A stretch of 64,000 nucleotides of DNA, taken from positions 32,001-96,000 of the IMG/VR virus record IMGVR_UViG_3300017963_000201. One strand, given 5' to 3'. The translations under genes and the position numbers were made by a program. The notes under the pieces were generated by a model that was not told the origin of the DNA, ran no database searches, and was given only the letters and a program-made list of their open reading frames with translations. This DNA comes from a virus. Shown piece by piece: positions 1,621 through 50,794 of this stretch (position 1 is the first letter of the stretch; each line of letters starts with the position of its first letter).

Positions 1621-3692
1621 GTGGAAAATACAAGCGAATTAAAATTTCGTCGGAAAGGTTGAATGGGATTATTGCCCATATTGACGCAGGCAAGACCACC
1701 GTAACCGAAAGGTTTTTGTACTATACGGGCGTGACTCATCGCATGGGAGAGGTCCACGATGGACAGGCCGTCATGGACTGGATGCCCCAGGAACAAGAAC
1801 GTGGTATTACCATTACCTCGGCGGTCACCGTGCTGCCCTGGCGCAAACATGAAATCCACCTCATCGACACACCGGGGCACGTGGATTTTACCGTTGAAGT
1901 CGAACGCAGCTTGCGAGTCCTCGACGCAGCGGTTGTGGTCTTTTGTGCCGTGGGAGGAGTCGAGCCCCAATCAGAGACAGTATGGCGACAAGCAGATCGC
2001 TACCAGATCCCCAGATTGGCCTTTATCAACAAAATGGATCGTGTCGGGGCAGACTACGAAGGTTGTGTCGAGCAAATGGTCGACAAGCTGGGCTGCGTTC
2101 CCATGCCAATCCAGATTCCCCTGGGAAAAGAAGAAAACCTCCAGGGAGTGGTCGATCTAGTCAGAATGGAGATATTGCGCTGGCATACTGAAGACCTTGG
2201 GGCCACCTTCGACCGCTCACCCCTCAATGACGACCCTGAAATTGCCGCCCTAGCCGCTCCGTGGAGAGACCGGCTGCTCGAGATTCTGGCGGATGACGAC
2301 GACCAAATCGCCGAGGCTTATCTTGCCGGAGATACCATTGCCACTGAAAAAATCATGGCCGCGGTTCGCAAGCAGTGCCTGTCCAACCGTGCGGTGCCGG
2401 TTTTGTGTGGCTCGGCCCTCAAGAACAAGGGAGTTCAACCCTTGCTCGATGCAGTCGTCGACTTTTTACCAGCGCCGGTGGAATTGCCTCCAGTCCAGGG
2501 GACCCATCCCCAGACCAAAGAACCGGTCGTCATGGAGCGTAATCGCAACGAGCCCTTTTCCGGCGTCGCGTTCAAGGTCCAACTCTGGGACGGACGCAAA
2601 CACACGTATCTACGCATCTACTCGGGCTCGCTGAGCGCCACTGACACGGTCTACAACCCGAACAAGGACGCCAATGAAAAAATAGCTCGCCTTCTGAAGC
2701 TGCACGCCGACAAGAAGTCCCGTATCCAACGGGCTGACGCAGGCGACATCGTGGGCGTCGTGGGGCTGAAAAAGGCGACAACCGGAGACACCCTGTGCAC
2801 CCGAGCCCATCCGGTCGTCTTTGGGCAAATGACGTTCATGACCCCAGTCATCTCCATGGCGGTGGAGGCCAAAACCAGCCGAGTGGAAGAAAAACTCAAA
2901 GAGGTCCTGGTAAAAATGGTCGAAGAAGACCCCACCTTTACCGTGACCCAGGATCCCGACACTGGGCAAACCATTTTGAGCGGTATGGGCGAGCTCCACC
3001 TCGAAATCATCTGTGATCGTCTGGAGCGAGAATTCCACGTTCCGGTCAATGTCGGCAAACCCCAGGTTGTCTATCGCGAGACCTTGTCACAGGCAACCGA
3101 AGCCTCGGAACGCTTCGAGAGAAAATTCGACGAGACAGCCAAGGCCAAAAACATGTTCGCTGGGATAACCCTCAAGGCCGAACCTCTAGGTCGGGGACTC
3201 GGTCTAAAGTTCACAAACACCATCGTCCGCCCCCCGGAAGCACCCCCGATTCCCGCAGACTTCATCCAGGCCGCAGAAGAAGGGGTCCGGGAGGCTGCTG
3301 GCGCCGGGCCGCAGTCAGGCTATCCCATCACCGACATAGCGGTCTCGCTCAAGGGCATCGAGTTCAAAGAGGGTGACACAACGCCCATTGCGGTTCACAT
3401 CGCCGCAGCGGGTGCTTTTCGGCGTGCCTGCGAAAAAGCCGGAACGGAGCTACTGCTTCCCATAATGGCGTTGGAAGCAGTGACGCCCGAAGATTTCACG
3501 GGGGCCGTTATTGGAGACATCAACTCACGGGGAGGCAAGGTCGAAGAGCTCGAGAAGAAAGCATCCAGGACCATCATCCGGGCCCAGGTTCCGATGACCA
3601 AGATGTTCGGCTATGCCACCAGCCTCCGTTCATTGACTGAAGGCCGGGGTACTTTTAGCATGCGGTTTCTCAAGTTTGATAGGGCGTCCTGA
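1621..3692 (+). CDS. fusA: Elongation factor G with a small frameshift/stop lesion at ~1654-1664 (main ORF 1659-3692)
   Basis: G1 [10 protein letters not shown]2 RGITI, G3 DTPGH, G4 [33 protein letters not shown]; natural N-terminus [11 protein letters not shown] (GTG 1621, RBS AAAGGA) is in another frame and stops at 1660-1662. Confidence 0.9.
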
Positions 3693-5366: not shown

Positions 5367-5853
5367 GAAGGAACCCCTTAGTTACGATCCAATTAATGAT
5401 TACGTCGTAGACATGGCAAATCAGCTTATCGCTAAACACCATCCCCACCTTGCAGATGCTAAAATGGCATATCTTTGGCGCAATAAACCTTTGATGGAAT
5501 CTGGACAAGCGGTATTTGCTAAAGCCAAAAAAATCACAGGAGAGATGCACGCTCTTTGTGATAAAGAATTTTTGATCGTGATTGTCTACCCTATGTGGAA
5601 TGATTTAAAAGAAGAAGAAAAGTGGGCCATATTGGATCATGAACTTACTCATTGCTTTGTAGACGAAGACGAAGAAGGCGAACGAGTATGTAAGATCCTA
5701 CCCCATGACTTTAGTGATTTTGGAGAAATTATAGTCAGACATGGTTTATACGGGAATCTAAAAGTCATTGCTGAAGCTATGAAAATAAGAAAGCTAAAGA
5801 AAGAAACAAAAGTTACAAAAGCGGCTCAAGAAGAAGCACCGGCTCTACAGTGA
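5344..5853 (+). CDS. Putative phage metallopeptidase (HExxH)
   Basis: LDHELTH plus PHD motif; RBS GGAGG before ATG 5344. Confidence 0.7.
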   Translation: MPRKKKVRKEPLSYDPINDYVVDMANQLIAKHHPHLADAKMAYLWRNKPLMESGQAVFAKAKKITGEMHALCDKEFLIVIVYPMWNDLKEEEKWAILDHELTHCFVDEDEEGERVCKILPHDFSDFGEIIVRHGLYGNLKVIAEAMKIRKLKKETKVTKAAQEEAPALQ

Positions 5854-6677
5854 AACTTGTCCTAGCAGACTGCTTCGATCTTTGTAAGCGTATCCCTTCT
5901 GGTAAGATTAATCTTGTCTATGTGGATCCCCCATTCAACACAGGTAAAAAACAAAAAGGAGGGCGTATAAAGTTTACATCCTCTAACTCTGGATCTCGAA
6001 AAGGTTATGCTGGTAGAAAATACAAAACTGAAAGCATACCTGGCCCCTCATACCAAGACATCTACAAAGATTATATTTCTTATTGGGGGCCGAGATTTTT
6101 AGAGATGGCTCGAATATTAACTTCTAACGGATCTTTGTTTATTCATATTGATTACCGCCAAGCCCCTTACGTGCGGGTATTTCTTGATCAGCATCTTTAT
6201 TTTATGAACGAAATAATTTGGGCATACGACTATGGAGCACGCACAAAAAAGAGGTGGCCAGCAAAACACGATAATATACTTTGGTACGTAAAGGATCCTG
6301 CAAATTATGTTTTTAACTATTCGAAAATTGATCGGATACCTTACTTGGCTCCCAGCCTTCAAACTCCAGAACGAAGACAATTGGGAAAAACACCGACTAC
6401 CGTTTGGTGGGGTACCATTGTCCCAACCAATTCAAAAGAACGCACAGGATACCCAACCCAAAAACCAAGATGGCTACTAGAGCGGATTTTGAAGGTGCAT
6501 ACAAAGCCCCGAGATTGGGTCTGTGACCCTTGTGCTGGTTCAGGTACCCTAGGGGCTGTAGCTAGTTCCCTAGACCGTAGGTGCCTTCTCGGGGACTCTA
6601 GCGAAGAAGCAATAGAGTGTATGCAGAAAAGACTCTCTCAGTACAGTCCCCAAATCATTAAAATAGGCAAAAAATAA
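5850..6677 (+). CDS. Site-specific DNA methyltransferase (N6A/N4C, beta class)
   Basis: DPPF catalytic motif N-terminal; YPTQKP; DPCAGSGT SAM-binding motif C-terminal. Confidence 0.9.
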   Translation: MKLVLADCFDLCKRIPSGKINLVYVDPPFNTGKKQKGGRIKFTSSNSGSRKGYAGRKYKTESIPGPSYQDIYKDYISYWGPRFLEMARILTSNGSLFIHIDYRQAPYVRVFLDQHLYFMNEIIWAYDYGARTKKRWPAKHDNILWYVKDPANYVFNYSKIDRIPYLAPSLQTPERRQLGKTPTTVWWGTIVPTNSKERTGYPTQKPRWLLERILKVHTKPRDWVCDPCAGSGTLGAVASSLDRRCLLGDSSEEAIECMQKRLSQYSPQIIKIGKK

Positions 6678-6728: not shown

Positions 6729-6935
6729 ATGCTACACAACACTTCAATAAGGCTATCGAAGCAAGAAAAAAAATGGCTTGCTTCGTTTGGGAGACCAGTT
6801 GGGGAGCAAATCAGGATACACAATAGGCTTGTGCGAAAGTTGTATGCCCTGGCCGAAAAAAACAAGACGATTACCTTAGCAGAAGCTCTATCAATATTAG
6901 ATAGCGATCCACTTGAGGAGTCTGATGCAGAATAA
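6729..6935 (+). CDS. Ribbon-helix-helix-like DNA-binding protein
   Basis: TSIRLSKQEKKWL beta-helix pattern; RBS GGAGG. Confidence 0.55.
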   Translation: MLHNTSIRLSKQEKKWLASFGRPVGEQIRIHNRLVRKLYALAEKNKTITLAEALSILDSDPLEESDAE

Positions 6936-7899
6936 GTACGAAATTATCCGAGAGCTGTTCAAAGAATATAGCTTGCTAAACTACCCACTAGCAAGCTACG
7001 ACGAGTTTATTCAACGAATAATGCCCGAAAGGTGCTTCAAGCTACTCTACGCGGCGACTCAAAAAATGGGCTACAGCCAAGCTGATTTTGTCGCAATGCC
7101 CCAACTAATGTACACGGTTTGGGTAACTGAAAAAACAGGTCGTCCTGTTTTTGAAGTCCGTCCCGATATTATGGAAGCCTTACGGGATACGGACATTCCA
7201 GACTTTCCTTTGGAAGATCTAAAACTACCATTCGAAGGAATAATATTAAAGATCGATCAAGACACTTTTCATGGGCCTGCAGCTAACACGGGAGTTTTGT
7301 ACGTAACCCAAGTAGACTCTGATCGCTTTCGTGTCGTCTTTGATATTAACGACGAAGATACACATTTTATGAACCTTACCACAGATGGGTGCCATACTCT
7401 TAAACAATCAATTGAGAAATCGACACAGGCCACAAAAGAGATCCCCGAGCATATTCTTAAGCAATACGAAGAGTCACGAATCTACTTTGATTACTATGAC
7501 TCTGATGTTTTTCGCTTTGTAATTAATCTTGTTTTGTACATTACAAGTCCAGATAGCGATGTGAAGCAAGACAAAACCAAGATACATGCTTTACATCAAA
7601 AGTTACAAGCGACAAAAAAGAAAAACAAAAGAGAAATTATTCTAAAGCAACTTAGAAAAGCTAAAGACCACAAAAGATATATCGTAGGTGCAAATACTAA
7701 ACTTACGAAAGAGTACAAGGCATCGCTGACTGATGCCGGAAAAAAGTGGGCACTCACTCACAGATTCAAAGTACGGGGACACTTCAGAAAGCAAGCCTGT
7801 GGTAAAGGTTATCAAGACCACAAGCGCATTTGGGTTTCTCCGTATTGGAAAGGTCCTACCTACGCAGAAATGCTAGGTATGAATTACGTGGTAACATGA
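6925..7899 (+). CDS. Hypothetical phage protein
   Basis: Long ORF; C-terminal VRGHFR..RIWVSPYWKG motif typical of phage proteins. Confidence 0.6.
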   Translation: MQNKYEIIRELFKEYSLLNYPLASYDEFIQRIMPERCFKLLYAATQKMGYSQADFVAMPQLMYTVWVTEKTGRPVFEVRPDIMEALRDTDIPDFPLEDLKLPFEGIILKIDQDTFHGPAANTGVLYVTQVDSDRFRVVFDINDEDTHFMNLTTDGCHTLKQSIEKSTQATKEIPEHILKQYEESRIYFDYYDSDVFRFVINLVLYITSPDSDVKQDKTKIHALHQKLQATKKKNKREIILKQLRKAKDHKRYIVGANTKLTKEYKASLTDAGKKWALTHRFKVRGHFRKQACGKGYQDHKRIWVSPYWKGPTYAEMLGMNYVVT

Positions 7900-39197: not shown

Positions 39198-40385
39198 TTG
39201 GATTTCTCTATAGCAGATCACACTAGTTATTTAGTGGTTGCAGGATCGCATGCCTATAAGACACACCACCAAGATAGCGACTATGATGTTAGAGGTTGGG
39301 GAATACCCCCACTAAAATACCAATTTGCTTTTGACAAACATTTTGATCAATACGATGCAAAGCATACCTATCGAAATTACCCTTTTAGGGTAGATCTAAA
39401 TTCGTATATTAAATCTCATAACCTTAGGCCACTTCCAGAAGACGAAATGATAGATCAAACTGTTTACTCAATTTCTAAATTTTTCAAGCTGGCATCAGAT
39501 TGCAACCCTAATGTGATTGAGTTATTATTTGTTGACGATACAGATATATTAATCTGTGATCCCTATGCCACAGAAGTTAAAAAACACCGAGACTTATTTT
39601 TGTCTGCCCGCGCCAAATTTAGCTATTTAGGGTATGCAATCAGTCAACTGAAGCGTATTAAAACTCATCGGAGGTGGTTACTTAATCCACCTAAAGAAAA
39701 ACCCACTAGGACTAAATACGAGCTTCCAGAGCAATCTTTAATACCACCAGAGCAACGAGGTGCTGCAGAAGCCTTGGTAAAAGCAAAAGTACGGGAATGG
39801 ACCTTACAAGATGCCGATCTTTTTTCAAAGACTGAATTAAATATGGTCCATGTAAATCACCTATCAGAGTTTGTAGGGTATCTAATAGACCGTAAAACGG
39901 ATATACAAGAAATGCTTACAGCAGCTCGCATAGCTGCAATGCACTACTACGGACTGTCAAAAAATATGATCGAAGTTTTACAAGCTGAAAAATCATATAA
40001 GGCGGCATTAATAGAATGGAACCAATACAAGAATTGGAAAGAAACCAGAAATCCTTATAGAGCTGGATTAGAAAGGGACTATGGCTATGATTTAAAACAC
40101 GCCATGCACCTTGTTAGACTAATTTTTCAAGGCGAAGAATTACTCACTAGAGGAAAAATTACAGTAAGGTGTAATCACATTCCAGAGATCGAAGAAGTAA
40201 AAGAAGGTAAGTGGAGCTACGAAAAATTAATTTATTTTGTAGAGACTAAAGAAAAAGAATTTAATATTTTGTATAATGACAAGAAGTACGTCGTACCAAA
40301 GAAGCCGAATATAAAGGCTCTGAGTAAGCTAAATACGGATCTATTAAAGAGGTATTACCATGAGAAAATTTTTCTACGACACTGA
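39198..40385 (+). CDS. Pol-beta superfamily nucleotidyltransferase (RlaP/YcgL-like)
   Basis: GSHAY..DSDYDVRG, NPNVIELLF, YDLKHAMHLVRL. Confidence 0.85.
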   Translation: MDFSIADHTSYLVVAGSHAYKTHHQDSDYDVRGWGIPPLKYQFAFDKHFDQYDAKHTYRNYPFRVDLNSYIKSHNLRPLPEDEMIDQTVYSISKFFKLASDCNPNVIELLFVDDTDILICDPYATEVKKHRDLFLSARAKFSYLGYAISQLKRIKTHRRWLLNPPKEKPTRTKYELPEQSLIPPEQRGAAEALVKAKVREWTLQDADLFSKTELNMVHVNHLSEFVGYLIDRKTDIQEMLTAARIAAMHYYGLSKNMIEVLQAEKSYKAALIEWNQYKNWKETRNPYRAGLERDYGYDLKHAMHLVRLIFQGEELLTRGKITVRCNHIPEIEEVKEGKWSYEKLIYFVETKEKEFNILYNDKKYVVPKKPNIKALSKLNTDLLKRYYHEKIFLRH

Positions 40386-43651: not shown

Positions 43652-43657
43652 GCCTTT

Positions 43658-43794
43658 GGGCAAATGCTGTATGGCACTCCATAGCTTATATAAGTTCGAA
43701 TCTTATTATACCCTTCGGGGTATATAGCCTAACTGGTAAGGCAGCTTCTTATAAAGAAGCCAAGCGAAAATGTGCCACACAATACTTGTTGCCC
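43658..43794 (+). ncRNA. Y RNA 1 (YrlA-like) with permuted tRNA opened in the variable arm
   Basis: GGGCAA-ATG..CTTG-TTGCCC terminal helix; order T arm, acceptor closed by cUUCGg, D arm, anticodon arm (loop TTATAAA). Confidence 0.8.
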
Positions 43795-43809
43795 TTTATT
43801 AGTCAGATT

Positions 43810-43883
43810 TCTTGCTGAATGCAGTTTATGATTACATTTTTGTGTAAAAAAATCAGATCACAAACTAATCCTTGTCAGCAAGA
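43810..43883 (+). ncRNA. Y RNA 2 (minimal, no tRNA module)
   Basis: TCTTGCTGA-ATGCAG..GATTACATT..CCTTG-TCAGCAAGA; same conserved motifs as the other Y RNAs. Confidence 0.7.
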
Positions 43884-43892
43884 TTAATCCTT

Positions 43893-44123
43893 GGGGATCT
43901 AAATGCGCGTCAGGATTACATTGCACTTAACTGTTAATTAAGAGGTTGTTGGTTCGAGTCCAACCTGGCCCATCTCCGCTAGTGGGGGTAGGAATCCATG
44001 TCATAGGTTTACAGTCCCTCCCGTATGCTTGTGGCTTCCGCTCTTTTCTTACCCTCACTTTTATGGGCCAGTAGCTCAATTGGTAGAGATAATATGGTCT
44101 TGGCAAATACTTGTTAGATTCCC
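43893..44123 (+). ncRNA. Y RNA 3 containing permuted tRNA-Asn(GTT) with ~90-nt insert in acceptor loop
   Basis: GGGGATCTAA/TTAGATTCCC helix; anticodon arm CTTAA-CTGTTAA-TTAAG, T arm, CTGGCCC..GGGCCAG, D arm. Confidence 0.8.
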
Positions 44124-44980: not shown

Positions 44981-45119
44981 TTACTCCGAATGCAGTAAGA
45001 GATTACATTGCTCTTCGAAAGCCGTGGTTGCGGGTTCAAGTCCCGCTCCCCCGATTTCGGGGGATAGCTCAATTGGTAGAGCACGTAAAATAATCTCTTG
45101 CAACCCTTGTCGGAGTAAA
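44981..45119 (+). ncRNA. Y RNA 4 (YrlA-like) containing permuted tRNA-Arg(TCG)
   Basis: TTACTCCGA-ATG..CTTG-TCGGAGTAA helix; GCT-CTTCGAA-AGC, T arm, TCCCCCG-ATTT-CGGGGGA, D arm. Confidence 0.85.
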
Positions 45120-45133
45120 TTTTTGGAGGTTTT

Positions 45134-45718
45134 ATGAATACGCATATTGAGTACGAACGAAAGTTTTTGATTGGGAAGAGCGATTGGATGCACTATGTCT
45201 CTAAGACAGTTTACATAGTTCAAGGCTACCTGTCTTTTGATATCCCTAGTGTTCGTATTCGAAAACAATGCTCCGTAAATCAATGTGATAATTTATTTTG
45301 CAATCAATGCACCTTTGGGGATAAATTTACAATTCAACTATCGTACAATATAACAATTAAAGGTACTAAAAACAAAGAAGACCTAGCATGTAGGGATGAA
45401 TTTAACATACCTGTTAGCCCCACTATTGGAGATCATATTCTTCGCCAAGTAAAAAAAGATTTTATAGTTAAACAAAGACACTTTGTCAAATACGATGATA
45501 TCATTTGGACCATTGACGAGTTTAAGAGAGATAACCAAGATCTTATAGTAGCAGAGGTTGAGAATAGTAATAACTTACCAAAAGATGAATTTAATAAATC
45601 GGTAAATACTCATATGCCAACATGGGTACTAGAAGAAGTAACACAAGATCCAGATTATTTAAACGTAAATTTAGCTAGGCATCCCTATAACACATGGGAC
45701 TTAAACAAAAACAAATAA
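45134..45718 (+). CDS. CYTH (triphosphate tunnel) domain protein
   Basis: EYERKFL, QGYL, VRIR, WTIDEF, VAEVE, EVTQDPDYLN. Confidence 0.88.
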   Translation: MNTHIEYERKFLIGKSDWMHYVSKTVYIVQGYLSFDIPSVRIRKQCSVNQCDNLFCNQCTFGDKFTIQLSYNITIKGTKNKEDLACRDEFNIPVSPTIGDHILRQVKKDFIVKQRHFVKYDDIIWTIDEFKRDNQDLIVAEVENSNNLPKDEFNKSVNTHMPTWVLEEVTQDPDYLNVNLARHPYNTWDLNKNK

Positions 45719-45909: not shown

Positions 45910-45971
45910 GCAGCGGTAGTGTACTAATCTTTCCCAAAACAGTGTCAAATGTGTCCATGCCTATCGCTGCC
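45909..45971 (+). ncRNA. Stem/large-loop element directly upstream of rsr
   Basis: GGCAGCGGTAG/CTATCGCTGCC 11-bp stem. Confidence 0.45.
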
Positions 45972-45999
45972 ATTGTCCTCACAGAAAGGGGAATGCATT

Positions 46000-47553
46000 A
46001 TGAATAAACAAGTCTTCAAAACGACTAGAGGGAAAATACCCGAAAGGGCTAATACCTACAATAAGGCAGGAGGTAAAGCTTATACGAGATCCCCAGAGGC
46101 ATCTTTAGTACAGATGGCTTTGACAGGAACTTTCTATAATACGTTCTATTGCTCCGGTAGAGCACAACTGAACGAAACGATAGATTTGTGCAAAAAGGTA
46201 GATCCTAGATTCGTAGCACAGACAGCTATCTACGCAAGAAGCAAAGGGCTCATGAAAGATATGCCTATGTTTCTTTGTGCTCATTTAGCAAAAGAAGATC
46301 CTAAACTTTTGGAGCTGATCTTTCCACAGGTAATGAGCAATGGGATAGTCCTCAAGAAGTTTGTACACATGCTTAGGTCTGGGGTTGTCGGGCGTAAAAG
46401 TATGGGGACCACGATCAAAAGAGCTGTTACTAATTGGATCCAGAATCGATCTTACCATGGGTTGTTCCGAGACGCTATCGGTGGGGATGTCACGATTGCA
46501 GACATAATAAAAATGGTTCACCCCAGACCTCAAGATAAATCAAGAGAAGCGTTCTATGCTTATTTGATCGGTAAGAAATATAATCATGAATCACTGCCTA
46601 CTATTGTAAAAGAATATGAGGCTTTCAAAAAAGGAGAAACCAAAGAAGTACCCAATGTAGAGTTTCGTTACTTAACTTCTCTGAAACTGGGTAAAACCGA
46701 ATGGACCCAAATTGCCTTGAACGCCCCTTGGCATATGTGTCGAATGAACTTGAATACCTTTGATCGCCATGGGGTATTCAAGGATAAAAAAGTGACAAAA
46801 AGAATTGCCGACAAAATCAGGGACCGCGAATCAATAAGAAAGGTTGGCGTATTCCCCTACCAACTTTTGGCAGCATACAAAGCAGAGAAGGATTTGCCAC
46901 GAGAGATCATTGAGTCTCTGCACGATGCAATGGAAATCGCAACCAAGAATGTGCCCACTGTTGAAGGGAAAGTTGTATTGTGCCCGGACGTATCAGGTTC
47001 TATGCAAAGCTATAGCGTTACAGGGTCAAAAAATTCTAGTATAAAGCCGTTAGACGTTGCCGCTTTAGTTACAGCCGTGGTATTGAGAAATAACCCAGAC
47101 GCTTTGGTTTTACCCTTCGATACAGGATTACACAATATAAGACTCGAACCTAGAGATACGGTTATGACTAATGCAAACAAACTAGGGAGAATTTATGGTG
47201 GAGGTACCTCAGTAAGTGTACCCATGCGGTATCTTATAGACAAAAGGATCAAAGCCGATGTCATTATCTACATAAGCGACAACGAGTCTTGGGCAGATCC
47301 TTATCACCGAAGTACTGCTTTAGAAGGGTACTGGCAACAATTCAAATCAAAGAATAGAAACGCTAAACTTATTTGTATCGACACTTATGTAGAGAAAAAC
47401 GTACAGGCTAAAGATGCTCCAGATGTATTAAACATTGGTGGTTTTTCAGACAACGTTTTTACGCTAATAAATCTTTTTCTTAATGGAAGCATTGGTACTG
47501 AGGGTATCGTAAGCGAAGTCAAAAAAATTAACATGGGAGAGCGTGATGCCTAA
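46000..47553 (+). CDS. rsr: Ro60/TROVE RNA-binding protein (Rsr)
   Basis: NKAGGKAY, TGTFYNTFY, IKMVHPRP, RMNLNTF, VFPYQLL, vWA MIDAS DVSGSM, GGT, SDNESW, IGGFSD. Confidence 0.93.
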   Translation: MNKQVFKTTRGKIPERANTYNKAGGKAYTRSPEASLVQMALTGTFYNTFYCSGRAQLNETIDLCKKVDPRFVAQTAIYARSKGLMKDMPMFLCAHLAKEDPKLLELIFPQVMSNGIVLKKFVHMLRSGVVGRKSMGTTIKRAVTNWIQNRSYHGLFRDAIGGDVTIADIIKMVHPRPQDKSREAFYAYLIGKKYNHESLPTIVKEYEAFKKGETKEVPNVEFRYLTSLKLGKTEWTQIALNAPWHMCRMNLNTFDRHGVFKDKKVTKRIADKIRDRESIRKVGVFPYQLLAAYKAEKDLPREIIESLHDAMEIATKNVPTVEGKVVLCPDVSGSMQSYSVTGSKNSSIKPLDVAALVTAVVLRNNPDALVLPFDTGLHNIRLEPRDTVMTNANKLGRIYGGGTSVSVPMRYLIDKRIKADVIIYISDNESWADPYHRSTALEGYWQQFKSKNRNAKLICIDTYVEKNVQAKDAPDVLNIGGFSDNVFTLINLFLNGSIGTEGIVSEVKKINMGERDA

Positions 47554-48304
47554 ACTTCATGAATTATTGGCAGTAGAGTCAGATCTAAAAAATCAATTTG
47601 ATAAGATCTTGCAAGAGACTATTGTTACATTCACCAAAAAGCAAGATCATTTTATGGGCGTGCATAAGACTCTAAAAATGATCGATGATAATCGGGCTCA
47701 TGAGGAAGAAGCAGCTACTCAGTACAAAGAGCTTGATGATACCGTAGACGGTAAATTGGACTATACTTGGAAGTATGTTTCCAAGTATATTAATGCGATT
47801 CATCAGAAGGAAAGTACAAACCAAACTGCTAAAGCAGACCTGGTTGTGGAAGGTAAGGTTTTAGCCAAAGACCTTCCTGCCACTTTACTTTTGAGCATGG
47901 AATCGAAGCTAAAGTTTCTTCGTGGGGTCTACGAAAAGATACCCACGCTACAACCCGGAGTAAAGTGGGTACCAGATCCACAAAGAGGTAAAGGTGTGTT
48001 TCAGGCAGAGCCTCCAGAGATGACCCATAAAACGGAGAAGGATCTGAAATCGAAAACTCTGTTTGAGGGTAATAAAGAACACCCACCACAAATTGAAAAG
48101 TGGATGGAATCTTTCGTTGTGGGTACCTACACAAAAGATATGTGGTCTGGTATGTATTCTCCAGCCAAGAAGTCTGAGGTTTTGGGTAGATTGGATACCC
48201 TGATTCAAAGCATCAAAAAAGCCCGTATGCGTGCAAACGATACAGAGGTTTTGAAGACCGAAGTTAATCTTGCGGGTGCGTTGTATAGCTATTTGACAAA
48301 GTGA
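47546..48304 (+). CDS. Uncharacterised helical protein coupled to rsr
   Basis: 253 aa, overlaps rsr stop; MPKLHELLAVE..LPATLLL..IPTL..HPPQ..ARMRAN. Confidence 0.75.
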   Translation: MPKLHELLAVESDLKNQFDKILQETIVTFTKKQDHFMGVHKTLKMIDDNRAHEEEAATQYKELDDTVDGKLDYTWKYVSKYINAIHQKESTNQTAKADLVVEGKVLAKDLPATLLLSMESKLKFLRGVYEKIPTLQPGVKWVPDPQRGKGVFQAEPPEMTHKTEKDLKSKTLFEGNKEHPPQIEKWMESFVVGTYTKDMWSGMYSPAKKSEVLGRLDTLIQSIKKARMRANDTEVLKTEVNLAGALYSYLTK

Positions 48305-48312
48305 ACAAGCTT

Positions 48313-48622
48313 TGGGCCAGCATCATAATTAGTCTCTGTTGTTAATTTTGTCCTTGGTGTTTTGCCCACAGCTTTAAACCTAAAGACGGATCAATTACTG
48401 GGCATGAATAAAAACCGCGTGCAGTGCGGGTTCAAGTCCCGTTCCGACCACCATATGGTCGGATAGTTCAATGGTAGAACGCATGCTTGATCAGATTCTA
48501 AATCGTGTGCCAGGAAAGATTCGGTACAGGGGGCTCGCTGGATGCCCTGTATCCCAGCACTTGGGTGGGATTGCTGTTGTGAAAAATGGTGATTTTTTAT
48601 AGCGGGCAATCCCATCTCTTTT
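48313..48622 (+). ncRNA. Structured RNA with permuted tRNA-like module, ending in a terminator
   Basis: T arm 48426-42, acceptor TCCGACC-ACCA-TAT-GGTCGGA, D arm 48466-80, closed by GCGTGC/GCATGC; several flanking stems; hairpin+U tract at 48564-48622. Confidence 0.75.
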
Positions 48623-49892: not shown

Positions 49893-50213
49893 ATGGGATT
49901 TGGAGATCAAAAGTTAATAGAAGAACAAAAAAGATTAGCCAAAATAGAAAAAGCAGAAAAAGAACATAAGCCCGTATTATATAAAGTTGTGGGTGAGAGG
50001 CAAGTGTCGGTCAAGACAGAATTAACTATTAAAGCCAGATCGGAAGAGGAAGCTGAAGATTTGTTTTTCAAAGAAATTAAAAACTACGATTTAAATCAAT
50101 TTGATTATTGCCCTGGAAATGAGGACATCGAAATTGAATCGATTGAAGCTTTACAAGCCATAGAAGAACCAGATGATAAAACGCTAAATCTTTTTAATAC
50201 AAAATCCTCATGA
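49893..50213 (+). CDS. Hypothetical protein
   Basis: Operonic ORF. Confidence 0.5.
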   Translation: MGFGDQKLIEEQKRLAKIEKAEKEHKPVLYKVVGERQVSVKTELTIKARSEEEAEDLFFKEIKNYDLNQFDYCPGNEDIEIESIEALQAIEEPDDKTLNLFNTKSS

Positions 50214-50794
50214 TATTTTTTACGGCTGATACGCACTTTAACCATACAAATATTTTAAAGTTATGTATGCGTCCTTATTACTGTATCAAGGAAATGAACG
50301 AGGATATAATTGAAAGGTGGAATACCACAGTAACAACAAATGATATTGTTTTTCATTTGGGTGACTTTAGCTTTTCAGACCCAAGACCCTTTTTAGCTCG
50401 ATTAAATGGGCAAATTATTATTATAAAAGGTAACCACGACAACAGATCTGTACGTAAAAAGTTTAATATATATTCACACCAAATGCGCATGAGGATTGGC
50501 AACTTTTTTTGTTTATTAAATCACCGACCCCTATACTCAGGGACTAATAAAGATCACCACGATCCAAAAGAAGAAATAGCTTATCCAGCAAGATACGATT
50601 TTATAATTTCCGGCCACGTTCACGAGAAATGGCTCTGGACGGGCCGATCTTTAAATGTAGGGGTTGATCAACACGAATTTACGCCTCTGAGTTACCCCCT
50701 TGTCCTAAACTTACTTTATGCTCGTAAAGAGCACCTTATGACTAAACATGCTACATCGTGGGATAAAATTAAACAAAAAAACTTAGACGAATAG
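50210..50794 (+). CDS. Calcineurin-like metallophosphoesterase
   Basis: DTHF, HLGD, GNHD, GHVH, NVGVD. Confidence 0.9.
   Translation: MIFFTADTHFNHTNILKLCMRPYYCIKEMNEDIIERWNTTVTTNDIVFHLGDFSFSDPRPFLARLNGQIIIIKGNHDNRSVRKKFNIYSHQMRMRIGNFFCLLNHRPLYSGTNKDHHDPKEEIAYPARYDFIISGHVHEKWLWTGRSLNVGVDQHEFTPLSYPLVLNLLYARKEHLMTKHATSWDKIKQKNLDE

What the first reader, a model, noticed from the sequence alone, without database searches (positions are those of the whole stretch)
44981..45119. Y RNA 4 reassembles into tRNA-Arg(TCG) with a split anticodon stem
45058-45085 (ending GAGCACG) joined to 45010-45054 (GCTCTTCGAAAGCCGTGGTT-T arm-TCCCCCGA) gives an anticodon stem CGGCT/AGCCG. Two of its pairs come from the downstream segment and three from the upstream one, so the Ro stem branches out of the anticodon helix while a canonical CU-UCG-AA loop stays exposed.
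Basis: seen in the sequence. Interest (0 to 1): 0.8.

Follow-up and report, generated by a model that had tools for sequence, protein, structure and literature searches.

The report
Y RNA with rebuilt anticodon arm
This phage small RNA is a known type of Ro60-binding "Y RNA" (YrlA), but it, like about four in ten of its relatives in phages and bacteria, carries a complete copy of a tRNA's anticodon arm, a part that published work said these RNAs lack or read as a different tRNA arm.

Summary
Window 44981-45119 (+) is a YrlA-type Y RNA (Rfam YrlA 60.7 bits, E 1e-12) lying 830 nt upstream of a phage Ro60 gene. It scores below the Rfam cut-off only because of a 16-nt insertion. That insertion is a 3-bp hairpin with the 7-nt loop CUUCGAA. 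It abuts two long-range pairs (45023-24 with 45084-85), giving a 5-bp anticodon stem followed by a normal 5-nt variable loop.

This is not chance. Of 139 YrlA-type cores found beside Ro60 genes, 58 have the same composite 5-bp stem with a 7-nt loop (about 2 per group expected from shuffles). They include Rfam-threshold bacterial YrlAs and mycobacteriophage Catera. The loop keeps the tRNA signature: in the bacterial set Y32 32/32, U33 31/32, R37 28/32, A38 27/32. The triplet at 34-36 varies freely. The split stem covaries (78% paired vs 42% shuffled, 0/500).

The "Arg" identity is therefore only formal. Chen et al. 2014 saw this hairpin and called it the variable arm; Wang et al. 2018 state that YrlA lacks an anticodon loop. 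The anticodon-arm reading seems new among the papers I could read.

Earlier scan notes on other genomes describe related "inside-out" tRNA-shaped Y RNAs, not this feature. Function is inferred, not shown.

The parts
44981..44989 (+). 5' strand of the terminal (Ro60-binding) helix, UUACUCCGA. It holds the conserved CGAA(U)G motif together with 44990-44993.
   Evidence: Pairs with 45110-45118 in the MFE fold. Aligned to the Rfam YrlA closing helix. Motif as in Chen 2014.
44990..44994 (+). Internal-loop strand AUGCA (conserved AAUGC block of YrlA)
   Evidence: Rfam YrlA alignment, model positions 8-12
44995..45005 (+). 5' strand of stem 2; ends in the conserved YUAY motif (UUAC, 45003-45006)
   Evidence: 11 pairs with 45091-45101; YUAY motif of Chen 2014
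45006..45009 (+). Single-stranded linker CAUU between stem 2 and the anticodon hairpin
   Evidence: UACAU(U) is conserved in front of the hairpin in the relatives. The CAU/GUG pairing in the MFE fold is kept in only 3 of 38 relatives.
45010..45022 (+). Anticodon hairpin: stem GCU/AGC (tRNA positions 29-31 / 39-41), loop CUUCGAA (32-38, 45013-45019), formal anticodon UCG at 45015-45017
   Evidence: Sequence. Insertion relative to the Rfam YrlA model. Homologous hairpins with 7-nt loops and covarying stems.
45023..45024 (+). C42 G43: 3' strand of the upper two pairs of the anticodon stem
   Evidence: Pairs with 45085-45084. Covariation at these two pairs: CG 25, GC 14; and GC 23, CG 15, AU 4, UA 3.
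45025..45029 (+). Variable loop UGGUU (44-48); U48 can form the Levitt pair with A15
   Evidence: NGGUY is the commonest variable loop in the set. 15:48 is G:C in 68 and A:U in 36 of 139.
45030..45046 (+). T arm GCGGG-UUCAAGU-CCCGC
   Evidence: Rfam YrlA alignment; 99.6% paired in the alignment
45047..45064 (+). Acceptor stem closed by a loop: 3' strand 45047-45053, loop AUUU 45054-45057 (A45054 sits at the discriminator position), 5' strand 45058-45064; 7 bp
   Evidence: A 7-bp stem is the feature linked to RNase P cleavage of M. smegmatis YrlA.
45065..45083 (+). U8 A9, D arm GCUC-AAUUGGUA-GAGC (45067-45082), A26 (45083)
   Evidence: Rfam YrlA alignment; 97.7% paired
45084..45085 (+). C27 G28: 5' strand of the upper two pairs of the anticodon stem, supplied by the downstream segment
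45086..45090 (+). A-rich linker UAAAA back to stem 2
   Evidence: A-rich linkers stand at this place in the relatives
45091..45118 (+). 3' strand of stem 2 (45091-45101), internal loop AACCCUUG (45102-45109), 3' strand of the terminal helix (45110-45118)
45949..47553 (+). Ro60/Rsr gene, the presumed protein partner
   Evidence: Pfam Ro60 vWA domain 4e-23, weak TROVE hit. About 50% identity to proteins annotated as 60 kDa SS-A/Ro or TROVE.

Best explanation
Y4 is a YrlA-class Y RNA of a large uncultured phage. Its paired 5' and 3' ends form the helix that Ro60 proteins bind. Its distal module folds as a nearly complete tRNA in permuted gene order: anticodon hairpin, variable loop, T arm, loop-capped 7-bp acceptor stem, D arm. 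The anticodon arm is rebuilt from two long-range pairs (27-28 with 42-43) stacked on a 3-bp hairpin that carries a 7-nt loop of canonical anticodon-loop make-up. The Ro60-binding stems leave as the third arm of a three-way junction, through the nick between positions 28 and 29. This is a conserved design shared by roughly 40% of the YrlA RNAs sampled here, in phages and in several bacterial phyla. Selection keeps the loop's shape-determining positions (Y32, U33, R37, A38), the 5-bp stem length and the 5-nt variable loop, and lets the triplet vary. Inferred, not shown: the RNA tethers the phage Ro60 to, or competes for, a tRNA-binding protein that reads the anticodon end as well as the elbow. 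Candidates are an anticodon nuclease, an anticodon-loop modification enzyme or a repair enzyme. It is not a decoding tRNA. Shown: sequence anatomy, family membership, recurrence, loop signature, covariation. Inferred: coaxial stacking, Ro60 binding, the partner.
For: Rfam YrlA match at E 1.2e-12 with the hairpin as a 16-nt insertion. Ro60 gene 830 nt downstream on the same strand. Fold z-score -6.2. Composite 5-bp stem with 7-nt loop in 26/69 viral and 32/70 bacterial YrlA cores, against 1.7 and 2.0 expected; every other loop length occurs 0-9 times. The distance from the YUAC motif to the T stem is sharply peaked, and nearly every RNA in the peak forms the arm: bacterial 24 nt 23/23 and 25 nt 5/5; viral 25 nt 12/12 and 26 nt 3/3. 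Loop signature in the bacterial set: Y32 32/32, U33 31/32, R37 28/32, A38 27/32, with 21 different triplets. Covariation on 54 RNAs chosen by length only: the five pairs are 78% paired vs 41.9% in shuffles (0/500), score 0.766 vs 0.192, slid registers 31-48%. T, acceptor and D helices serve as positive controls at 97-100%. A canonical NGGUY variable loop with 15:48 covariation already lies between the arm and the T stem. The same design is present in Rfam-threshold YrlAs (L209 at 83.2 bits, and others) and in mycobacteriophage Catera (CUC-AUUGCAA-GAG plus AG/CU). A real tRNA-Arg(UCG) in L244 has the identical loop CUUCGAA. Established knowledge: in three-way junctions, helices joined by a zero-length strand tend to stack coaxially, and the hairpin and the 2-bp helix are contiguous at 41/42. 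In print: YrlA proposed as a competitive inhibitor of an anticodon nuclease (PMC7790460); RNA-repair type genes nearby (RlaP, metallophosphoesterase).
Against: Single-sequence thermodynamics does not favour the split stem. The composite structure is -51.1 kcal/mol, against -54.1 without the two long-range pairs and -57.2 for the MFE fold. The long-range pairs have pair probability 0.0 and the hairpin 0.24. There are no probing, expression or binding data. The Rfam score is below the curated cut-off (60.7 vs 69). In the solved S. Typhimurium YrlA, which has no hairpin, stem 2 itself takes the anticodon-stem position (10.1101/312249), so which helix stacks under the D stem in hairpin-bearing YrlAs is unknown. 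The ARAGORN call is not discriminating: 50 of 58 controls with shuffled arms were still called tRNA. My scanner admits some false positives (L160:509 is a true tRNA). The bacterial sample holds only the 80 Ro60 genes closest to the phage's.
Confidence: 0.75

Rival explanations
1. The hairpin is the equivalent of a tRNA variable arm (the 'V' stem-loop of Chen et al. 2014). Stem 2 is the anticodon-stem equivalent, as in the S. Typhimurium structure, and there is no anticodon mimicry.
For: This is the published reading (PMC4201824). In the crystal structure of the hairpin-less S. Typhimurium YrlA, stem 2 occupies the anticodon-stem position. One relative (L003/L137, about 5850-5990) seems to have a separate extra hairpin in the variable region.
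Against: A complete class I variable loop (NGGUY, with 15:48 covariation) already lies between the hairpin plus two pairs and the T stem. A class II variable arm would sit inside that loop, not 5' of positions 42-43. Variable arms have no fixed 7-nt loop and no Y32-U33...R37-A38 signature. Here 7 nt is favoured about 15-fold over expectation and over every other length. The composite stem is exactly 5 bp. Stem 2 is separated from the 2-bp helix by linkers on both strands.
Confidence: 0.12
2. Y4 is a permuted or split pre-tRNA. After cleavage in the acceptor loop, CCA addition and possibly removal of the Ro stems, it yields a chargeable, decoding tRNA-Arg(UCG).
For: All four arms, a 7-bp acceptor stem and A at the discriminator position are present. 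ARAGORN calls the join tRNA-Arg. M. smegmatis YrlA is cut by RNase P and gains CCA in vivo (PMC4201824). Its loop is identical to that of a real tRNA-Arg(UCG).
Against: Removing the two flanks and joining 28 to 29 would need a splicing system. No RtcB ligase was found in the held 145 kb of the phage, and I see no bulge-helix-bulge motif by eye. In relatives the triplets are often ones that real tRNAs do not use (AUG, AUU, AUC: none among 1036 tRNAs of the same loci). The D and T arms do not change with the triplet. Y4 has U20, not the A20 that I recall as a main Arg identity element in bacteria. A branch on the anticodon stem should clash with the ribosome (inference).
Confidence: 0.03
3. The anticodon-like hairpin is a decaying relic of the tRNA(s) from which YrlA arose (dimeric-tRNA origin model), or in Y4 a chance insertion, with no present function.
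For: The triplet drifts. About 55-60% of YrlAs do without the hairpin. A dimeric-tRNA origin, which would leave the first tRNA's anticodon arm exactly here, is in print (cited in 10.1101/312249).
Against: A relic should decay evenly. Here the stems covary, and loop length and positions 32, 33, 37 and 38 are kept across phages and several bacterial phyla while 34-36 vary. The spacing is fixed to the nucleotide.
Confidence: 0.06
4. Y4 is specifically a decoy or sentinel for an arginine-tRNA anticodon nuclease (colicin D-like).
For: Its loop CUUCGAA equals a real tRNA-Arg(UCG) loop. Arg-type NCG loops recur in relatives: L169, L158, L229, L253, L225 and, read by eye, L022. The decoy idea for YrlA is in print. 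Phage arrays carry Y RNAs with different loops.
Against: NCG triplets are about 7 of 58, against about 4 expected: not significant. Y RNA arms resemble cognate tRNA arms barely more than non-cognate ones (+0.15 of 14 positions, 33/52 positive). No such nuclease is known for the unknown host.
Confidence: 0.08

Closest known systems
YrlA (Y RNA-like A), Rfam RF02553; Chen et al. 2014 (PMC4201824); structure of the S. Typhimurium tRNA-like domain, Wang et al. 2018 (10.1101/312249, PDB 6CU1)
   Same: Gene beside Ro60/rsr. Terminal helix with the CGAA(U)G motif. YUAY motif. T arm 5' of the D arm. Acceptor stem closed by a loop. Conserved D/T elbow and Levitt pair. [quoted passage not shown]
   Different: The published reading equates that stem-loop with the variable arm and states that YrlA lacks an anticodon loop. 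Here it is a 2-3 bp hairpin completed to 5 bp by long-range pairs, with a 7-nt loop of anticodon-loop make-up, upstream of a normal variable loop. Y4 itself scores under the Rfam cut-off because the model has no such hairpin.
Mycobacteriophage Bxz1-type YrlA (Catera, DQ398053, L281 about 3330-3480) and M. smegmatis YrlA
   Same: Phage-encoded, upstream of a Ro-like gene. Catera has the same 2+3 split (CUC-AUUGCAA-GAG, AG paired with CU). M. smegmatis YrlA has a 7-bp acceptor stem like Y4 and is cut by RNase P and CCA-tailed in vivo.
   Different: Different triplet (UGC vs UCG). Ro60 is only about 21% identical. I did not look at the M. smegmatis sequence itself.
Circularly permuted tRNA genes (Cyanidioschyzon merolae), split tRNA genes (Nanoarchaeum) and two-piece tmRNA from permuted ssrA genes (from my own knowledge, not checked here)
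   Same: The 3' part of the tRNA fold is encoded before the 5' part, and the acceptor ends are joined by an intervening loop that can be cut.
   Different: Those RNAs mature into working tRNA or tmRNA. Here the break lies inside the anticodon stem, is occupied by a Ro60-binding helix, and nothing indicates splicing or decoding.
'Inside-out' tRNA-shaped Y RNAs noted earlier in this scan on other genomes (e1-5642982, e1-5326859, e1-2307158)
   Same: Small RNAs beside phage Ro60 genes that combine a tRNA fold with a Ro60-binding helix on the anticodon arm.
   Different: In those notes the gene order is the normal tRNA one and the anticodon end is replaced by the Ro module. In Y4 the order is the YrlA one and the anticodon loop is retained. 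I did not test those notes.

Membership tests
YrlA (Rfam RF02553) | Covariance-model score at or above the curated gathering score (69 bits) | tested here: not met
   60.7 bits, E 1.2e-12, full-length match to model positions 1-114. The shortfall comes with a 16-nt insertion. Bacterial relatives with the same insertion reach 70-83 bits.
YrlA (Rfam RF02553) | Encoded next to a Ro60/Rsr (TROVE) gene | tested here: met
   Ro60 ORF at 45949-47553 on the same strand (Pfam PF25045 4e-23; homologs)
YrlA (Rfam RF02553) | Terminal helix from the paired 5' and 3' ends with the GNCGAAN0-1G-type motif | tested here: met
   44981-89 pairs with 45110-18. CCGAAUGC lies at 44986-44993. The first G of the motif is U here.
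YrlA (Rfam RF02553) | tRNA-like module with T arm 5' of D arm, closed acceptor stem, YUAY motif and Levitt pair | tested here: met
   UUAC at 45003-06. A15 (45072) with U48 (45029).
YrlA (Rfam RF02553) | Bound by Ro60/Rsr; carries tRNA modifications | not testable with these tools
   Needs RNP pull-down and modification mapping
tRNA gene (Rfam RF00005 / ARAGORN) | Contiguous cloverleaf detected in the genomic order | tested here: not met
   No tRNA call at 44981-45119. Only the artificial join is called tRNA-Arg(tcg).
tRNA gene (Rfam RF00005 / ARAGORN) | Free acceptor ends and a continuous anticodon stem | tested here: not met
   The acceptor stem is closed by AUUU (45054-57). The 5' strand of the anticodon stem is interrupted between 45085 and 45010.
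tRNA anticodon arm (as a structural motif) | 5-bp stem; 7-nt loop with pyrimidine 32, U33, purine 37; followed by a 4-5 nt variable loop | tested here: met
   Y4: CGGCU/AGCCG, C32 U33 ... A37 A38, UGGUU.
tRNA-Arg identity | Arg identity elements beyond C35/G36 (A20; recalled from the E. coli literature) and conservation of the triplet in orthologs | tested here: not met
   The D loop AAUUGGUA gives U20. The triplet is not conserved among relatives. The only copy with the same triplet in the same place is the near-identical contig L004.

The most novel reading that the evidence does not exclude
Hairpin-bearing YrlAs are whole-tRNA baits. Those with 7-bp acceptor stems, like Y4, are cut by RNase P and CCA-tailed (as shown for M. 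smegmatis YrlA). That gives a two-piece, Ro60-tethered tRNA look-alike whose exposed anticodon loop is recognised by anticodon-directed enzymes. Phage arrays of Y RNAs with different triplets (here UCG, GUU, AUA) would then act as a panel of decoys or sentinels against host anticodon nucleases, coupling their capture or cleavage to Ro60 and RNA-repair functions.
Probability: 0.15. Interest if true: 0.85.

Novelty: new variant of a known kind. Interest (0 to 1): 0.62.

Why it matters
The effector bound by the tRNA-like module of bacterial and phage Y RNAs is an open question. Published thinking points to a protein that reads the tRNA elbow, because YrlA was taken to have no anticodon loop. If about 40% of YrlAs instead present a conserved, correctly spaced anticodon stem-loop with a free triplet, the candidates widen to proteins that read the anticodon end: anticodon nucleases, enzymes that modify positions 34 and 37, and tRNA repair or sensing systems. 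The question becomes directly testable by looking for anticodon-loop modifications or cuts on these RNAs, or by swapping triplets. It also bears on origin. The retained arm is what the dimeric-tRNA or permutation models of YrlA origin predict. For annotation, the Rfam model lacks the hairpin, so members such as Y4 fall below threshold.

Tried and rejected
2. ARAGORN as a test of the arm: 56/58 reassembled RNAs are called tRNA, but so are 50/58 controls with shuffled arms.
3. Thermodynamics: folding Y4 alone neither predicts nor favours the two long-range pairs. The MFE alternative CAU/GUG was checked in relatives and rejected (all three pairs in 3/38).
4. Specific mimicry of the cognate tRNA: Y RNA arms are only marginally closer to tRNAs with the same anticodon (+0.15 of 14 positions, 33/52 positive). 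Not claimed.
5. Enrichment of Arg-type or GUN/AUN triplets: weak, not claimed.
6. Close relatives among cultured phages: none at the DNA level. The best Ro60 match is Myxococcus phage Mx1 at 43%, where neither Rfam (at E 0.001) nor my scanner found a YrlA within 5 kb.
7. RtcB: none in the held 145 kb. One weak ligase-family hit only.
8. Hairpin placed after the D arm (the Y1 type): only 3 of 139 cores, so it is rare.
9. Papers I could not read: Burroughs and Aravind 2016 (NAR), Sim and Wolin 2018 (Microbiol Spectrum), Sim et al. 2020 (Annu Rev Microbiol), Boccitto and Wolin 2019, and the supplement of Chen 2014. The novelty claim is limited accordingly.
10. The first MAFFT alignment (A2) put position 29 in different columns for RNAs with different linker lengths, so I did not use it for counting. 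A3 starts at a fixed distance from the T stem instead.

Full report
WHAT IS THERE. The window is part of a 144,959-bp IMG/VR virus record estimated 79% complete. Positions 44981-45119 (+) lie 10 nt after a tRNA-Tyr gene and 830 nt upstream of a Ro60/Rsr gene (45949-47553; Pfam Ro60 vWA domain 4e-23; about 50% identical to proteins annotated as 60 kDa SS-A/Ro or TROVE). At permissive thresholds Rfam's YrlA (Y RNA-like) model matches 44983-45119 end to end at 60.7 bits, E 1.2e-12. That is below the curated 69 bits, and the alignment shows one 16-nt insertion, AUUGCUCUUCGAAAGC. The fold is far more stable than shuffles (z = -6.2). A near-identical contig from another sample (L004) carries the same RNA.

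THE OBSERVATION. Numbered as a tRNA, the RNA reads as follows:
- acceptor 5' strand 45058-64
- U8 A9
- D arm 45067-82
- A26
- C27 G28 (45084-85)
- then, from the upstream segment, G29 C30 U31 (45010-12)
- loop C32 U33 U34 C35 G36 A37 A38 (45013-19)
- A39 G40 C41 (45020-22)
- C42 G43 (45023-24)
- variable loop UGGUU
- T arm 45030-46
- acceptor 3' strand 45047-53
- A at the discriminator position, in the 4-nt capping loop

In genomic order no tRNA is called. The description is accurate.

IS IT MORE THAN CHANCE? Folding Y4 alone does not settle it. The MFE fold extends the hairpin with CAU/GUG instead. The two long-range pairs have zero pair probability, and the composite structure is 6 kcal/mol above the MFE. 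The evidence is comparative. I collected three sets:
- (i) a related phage contig (L003/L137, Ro60 43% identical) with an array of Y RNAs interleaved with tRNAs
- (ii) 80 viral Ro60 loci, plus loci from a DNA pattern scan
- (iii) 80 bacterial Ro60 loci from Acidobacteriota, Verrucomicrobiota, Planctomycetota, Myxococcota and others

A scanner of my own found 139 non-redundant cores. It looks for the permuted core (T arm, closed acceptor hairpin, D arm), an upstream UAC motif, and a stem 2 complement. It does not use the hairpin. I then asked whether the segment before the T stem, together with the first 0-3 nt after position 26, forms a 5-bp stem closing a loop of 3-12 nt, ahead of a 4-5 nt variable loop. 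A 7-nt loop occurs in 26/69 viral and 32/70 bacterial RNAs. Shuffles give 1.7 and 2.0. No other loop length exceeds 9. One viral case, L160:509, is a genuine tRNA and should be discounted.

The distance from the UAC motif to the T stem is sharply peaked, and almost every RNA in the peak forms the arm. Bacterial: 24 nt 23/23, 25 nt 5/5. Viral: 25 nt 12/12, 26 nt 3/3 (Y4 is one of these), 23 nt 5/7. Hairpin-bearing YrlAs are therefore a discrete class with fixed geometry.

THE LOOP IS AN ANTICODON LOOP IN MAKE-UP. None of these positions was used for selection. In the 32 bacterial RNAs, position 32 is C or U in 32, position 33 is U in 31, position 37 is a purine in 28, and position 38 is A in 27. 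Positions 34-36 show 21 different triplets. The viral set is looser: U33 19/26, R37 24/26, A38 22/26. The conserved positions are those that, by established tRNA structure, shape the loop (the 32-38 pair, the U33 turn, the purine-37 stack). The variable loop is mostly NGGUC or NGGUU. Position 48 covaries with position 15 (G:C 68, A:U 36 of 139), which fixes the register.

COVARIATION. I aligned 54 RNAs chosen only by the length criterion (23-26 nt), from 20 nt before the T stem to 3 nt after position 26. The alignment (A3) is gap-free across the arm. RNAs with 4-nt variable loops, and those where three pairs come from the downstream strand, are out of register and count against the structure. 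Even so, the five pairs of Y4's composite stem are 78.0% paired, against 41.9 +/- 2.4% in shuffles (0/500). The covariation score is 0.766 against 0.192, and slid registers give 31-48%. Pair 28:42 is CG 25, GC 14. Pair 27:43 is GC 23, CG 15, AU 4, UA 3. The T, acceptor and D helices behave as expected (97-100% paired). The MFE alternative for Y4 (CAU/GUG) has all three pairs in only 3 of 38 relatives.

The break point varies: 26/27 (Y3 of this window), 27/28 (L114), 28/29 (Y4 and most others), 29/30 (many bacterial RNAs, L110, L175, L197). The total stays at five pairs.

THESE ARE BONA FIDE YrlAs. In 19 bacterial loci the Rfam YrlA hits above the gathering score coincide with my hairpin-bearing RNAs. 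Examples are L209:2700-2834 at 83.2 bits, L212:5070-5199 at 82.5 and L200:2751-2881 at 74.5. In the alignment that was printed, L209, the hairpin shows as an insertion. Mycobacteriophage Catera (Bxz1 species), from the phage group in which Chen et al. reported YrlAs, has UUAC-CUC-AUUGCAA-GAG-AG-AGGUC before the T arm and G-CU after the D arm. That is the same 2+3 split.

WHAT IS KNOWN.
- Chen et al. 2014 (PMC4201824) defined YrlA. They showed tRNA-type modifications, and showed RNase P cleavage with CCA addition of the M. smegmatis RNA, which has a 7-bp acceptor stem like Y4. [quoted passage not shown]
- Wang et al. 2018 (10.1101/312249) solved the hairpin-less S. Typhimurium module and state that YrlA lacks the anticodon loop. 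They cite a model of origin from dimeric tRNA transcripts.
- Hughes et al. 2020 (PMC7790460) suggest YrlA may competitively inhibit an anticodon nuclease.
- None of the held papers that mention YrlA or phage Ro60 describes the hairpin as an anticodon arm.
- Several reviews and Burroughs and Aravind 2016 were not available, so I cannot exclude that it is in print.

WHY ANTICODON ARM RATHER THAN VARIABLE ARM. A full class I variable loop already sits between the arm and the T stem. The hairpin is contiguous with positions 42-43, whose partners follow position 26 directly. Stem length, loop length and loop signature are those of anticodon arms. Stem 2 is held off by linkers on both strands (CAUU and UAAAA in Y4). 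Coaxial stacking of the hairpin on the 2-bp helix is an inference from general junction behaviour.

WHAT IT DOES. Shown: a conserved, complete tRNA mimic attached to a Ro60-binding helix, beside a Ro60 gene, in a region with RNA-repair type genes (RlaP at 39198-40385, a phosphoesterase at 50210-50794). Inferred: the anticodon arm extends the mimicry so that a partner reading the anticodon end is bound, tethered to Ro60 or titrated.

The triplet is not an identity signal in the usual sense. It varies among relatives. Several triplets (AUG, AUU, AUC) have no counterpart among 1036 real tRNAs of the same loci. Arms are barely closer to cognate than to non-cognate tRNAs. Y4's 7-nt loop is nevertheless identical to that of a real tRNA-Arg(UCG) in L244. 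A decoding role is unlikely, and no RtcB was found in the held part of the genome.

VERDICT. The structural interpretation is supported by comparative evidence and generalises well beyond Y4. The "tRNA-Arg" label is formal. Y4 is a member of a known family. The conserved anticodon-arm mimic is, as far as I could check, an undescribed reading of a feature that was seen in 2014 and classed differently.

Noticed in passing
window 43657-43798 (+): Y RNA 1 (Rfam YrlA 40.7 bits, E 7e-7) carries its anticodon-like hairpin on the other side of the module. GCUUC-UUAUAAA-GAAGC (43744-43760) follows the D arm directly, so the break falls after position 43. This layout is rare: 3 of 139 cores in my set.
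   Followed up: partly
window 43894-44123 (+): Y RNA 3 has a complete 5-bp hairpin, CUUAA-CUGUUAA-UUAAG (43926-43942, loop as in tRNA-Asn GUU), before the variable loop, and an insert of about 95 nt in the acceptor loop. The Rfam tRNA model hits its 5' part at 35 bits (43907-43972).
   Followed up: partly
window 43810-43883 (+): Y RNA 2 has the terminal helix, the AAUGC/CUUG loop and the GAUUACAUU motif but no tRNA-like module (YrlB-like). A similar one lies at L003 about 6020-6088.
   Followed up: no
window 48420-48482 (+), after the DUF7873 gene 47543-48304: This is another permuted tRNA-like module: T arm, acceptor stem closed by ACCAUAU, D arm, then a CAUGC/GCGUG stem open at the loop. It gives a partial YrlA hit of 30.7 bits. 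Earlier scan notes on other genomes report a DUF7873-associated tRNA-mimic RNA.
   Followed up: no
L200, L201, L209, L211, L215, L253 (bacterial Ro60 loci): In several Acidobacteriota (Pyrinomonadaceae, Blastocatellia) MAG contigs, the Ro60 gene and YrlAs sit next to dense arrays of 10 to over 20 tRNA genes within about 2.5 kb. This resembles the phage layout and suggests mobile or prophage islands.
   Followed up: no
L200:2751-2881, L209:2700-2834; L211:2739-2870, L246 about 2700-2790: These YrlAs have the arm GCGGG-CUCAUAA-CCCGC: three G-C pairs next to a CAU loop, which I recall as the hallmark of the initiator tRNA anticodon arm. Close relatives have CUCAAAA, a one-base change in the triplet.
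   Followed up: no
L150:8475-8556, L206:975-1062, L245, L229:6187-6268, L261, L267, L217-L219, L274: Eleven of 32 bacterial and some viral Y RNA loops have A at position 34 (AUG, AUU, AUC, AAA, ACU). These triplets are absent or nearly absent among 1036 real tRNAs of the same loci. They look like G34-to-A34 versions of the His, Asn, Asp, Phe and Ser anticodons.
   Followed up: partly
L003:5850-5990 (= L137 about 6850-6990): One Y RNA of the related phage combines a Leu-like D arm (GCGAAAUUGGUAGACGC), a 2+3 split stem (GG/CC plus GGA/UCC) with loop CAUUAAA, and an extra hairpin (GCU-GUAAAA-AGC) in the variable region. This is a class II-like tRNA mimic. Five RNAs in the set have CA rather than YU at loop positions 32-33.
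   Followed up: no
window 45134-45718 (+): The 194-aa ORF between Y4 and the Ro60 gene has no Pfam hit and matches only a PHROG of unknown function (phrog_6660, 6e-10).
   Followed up: partly
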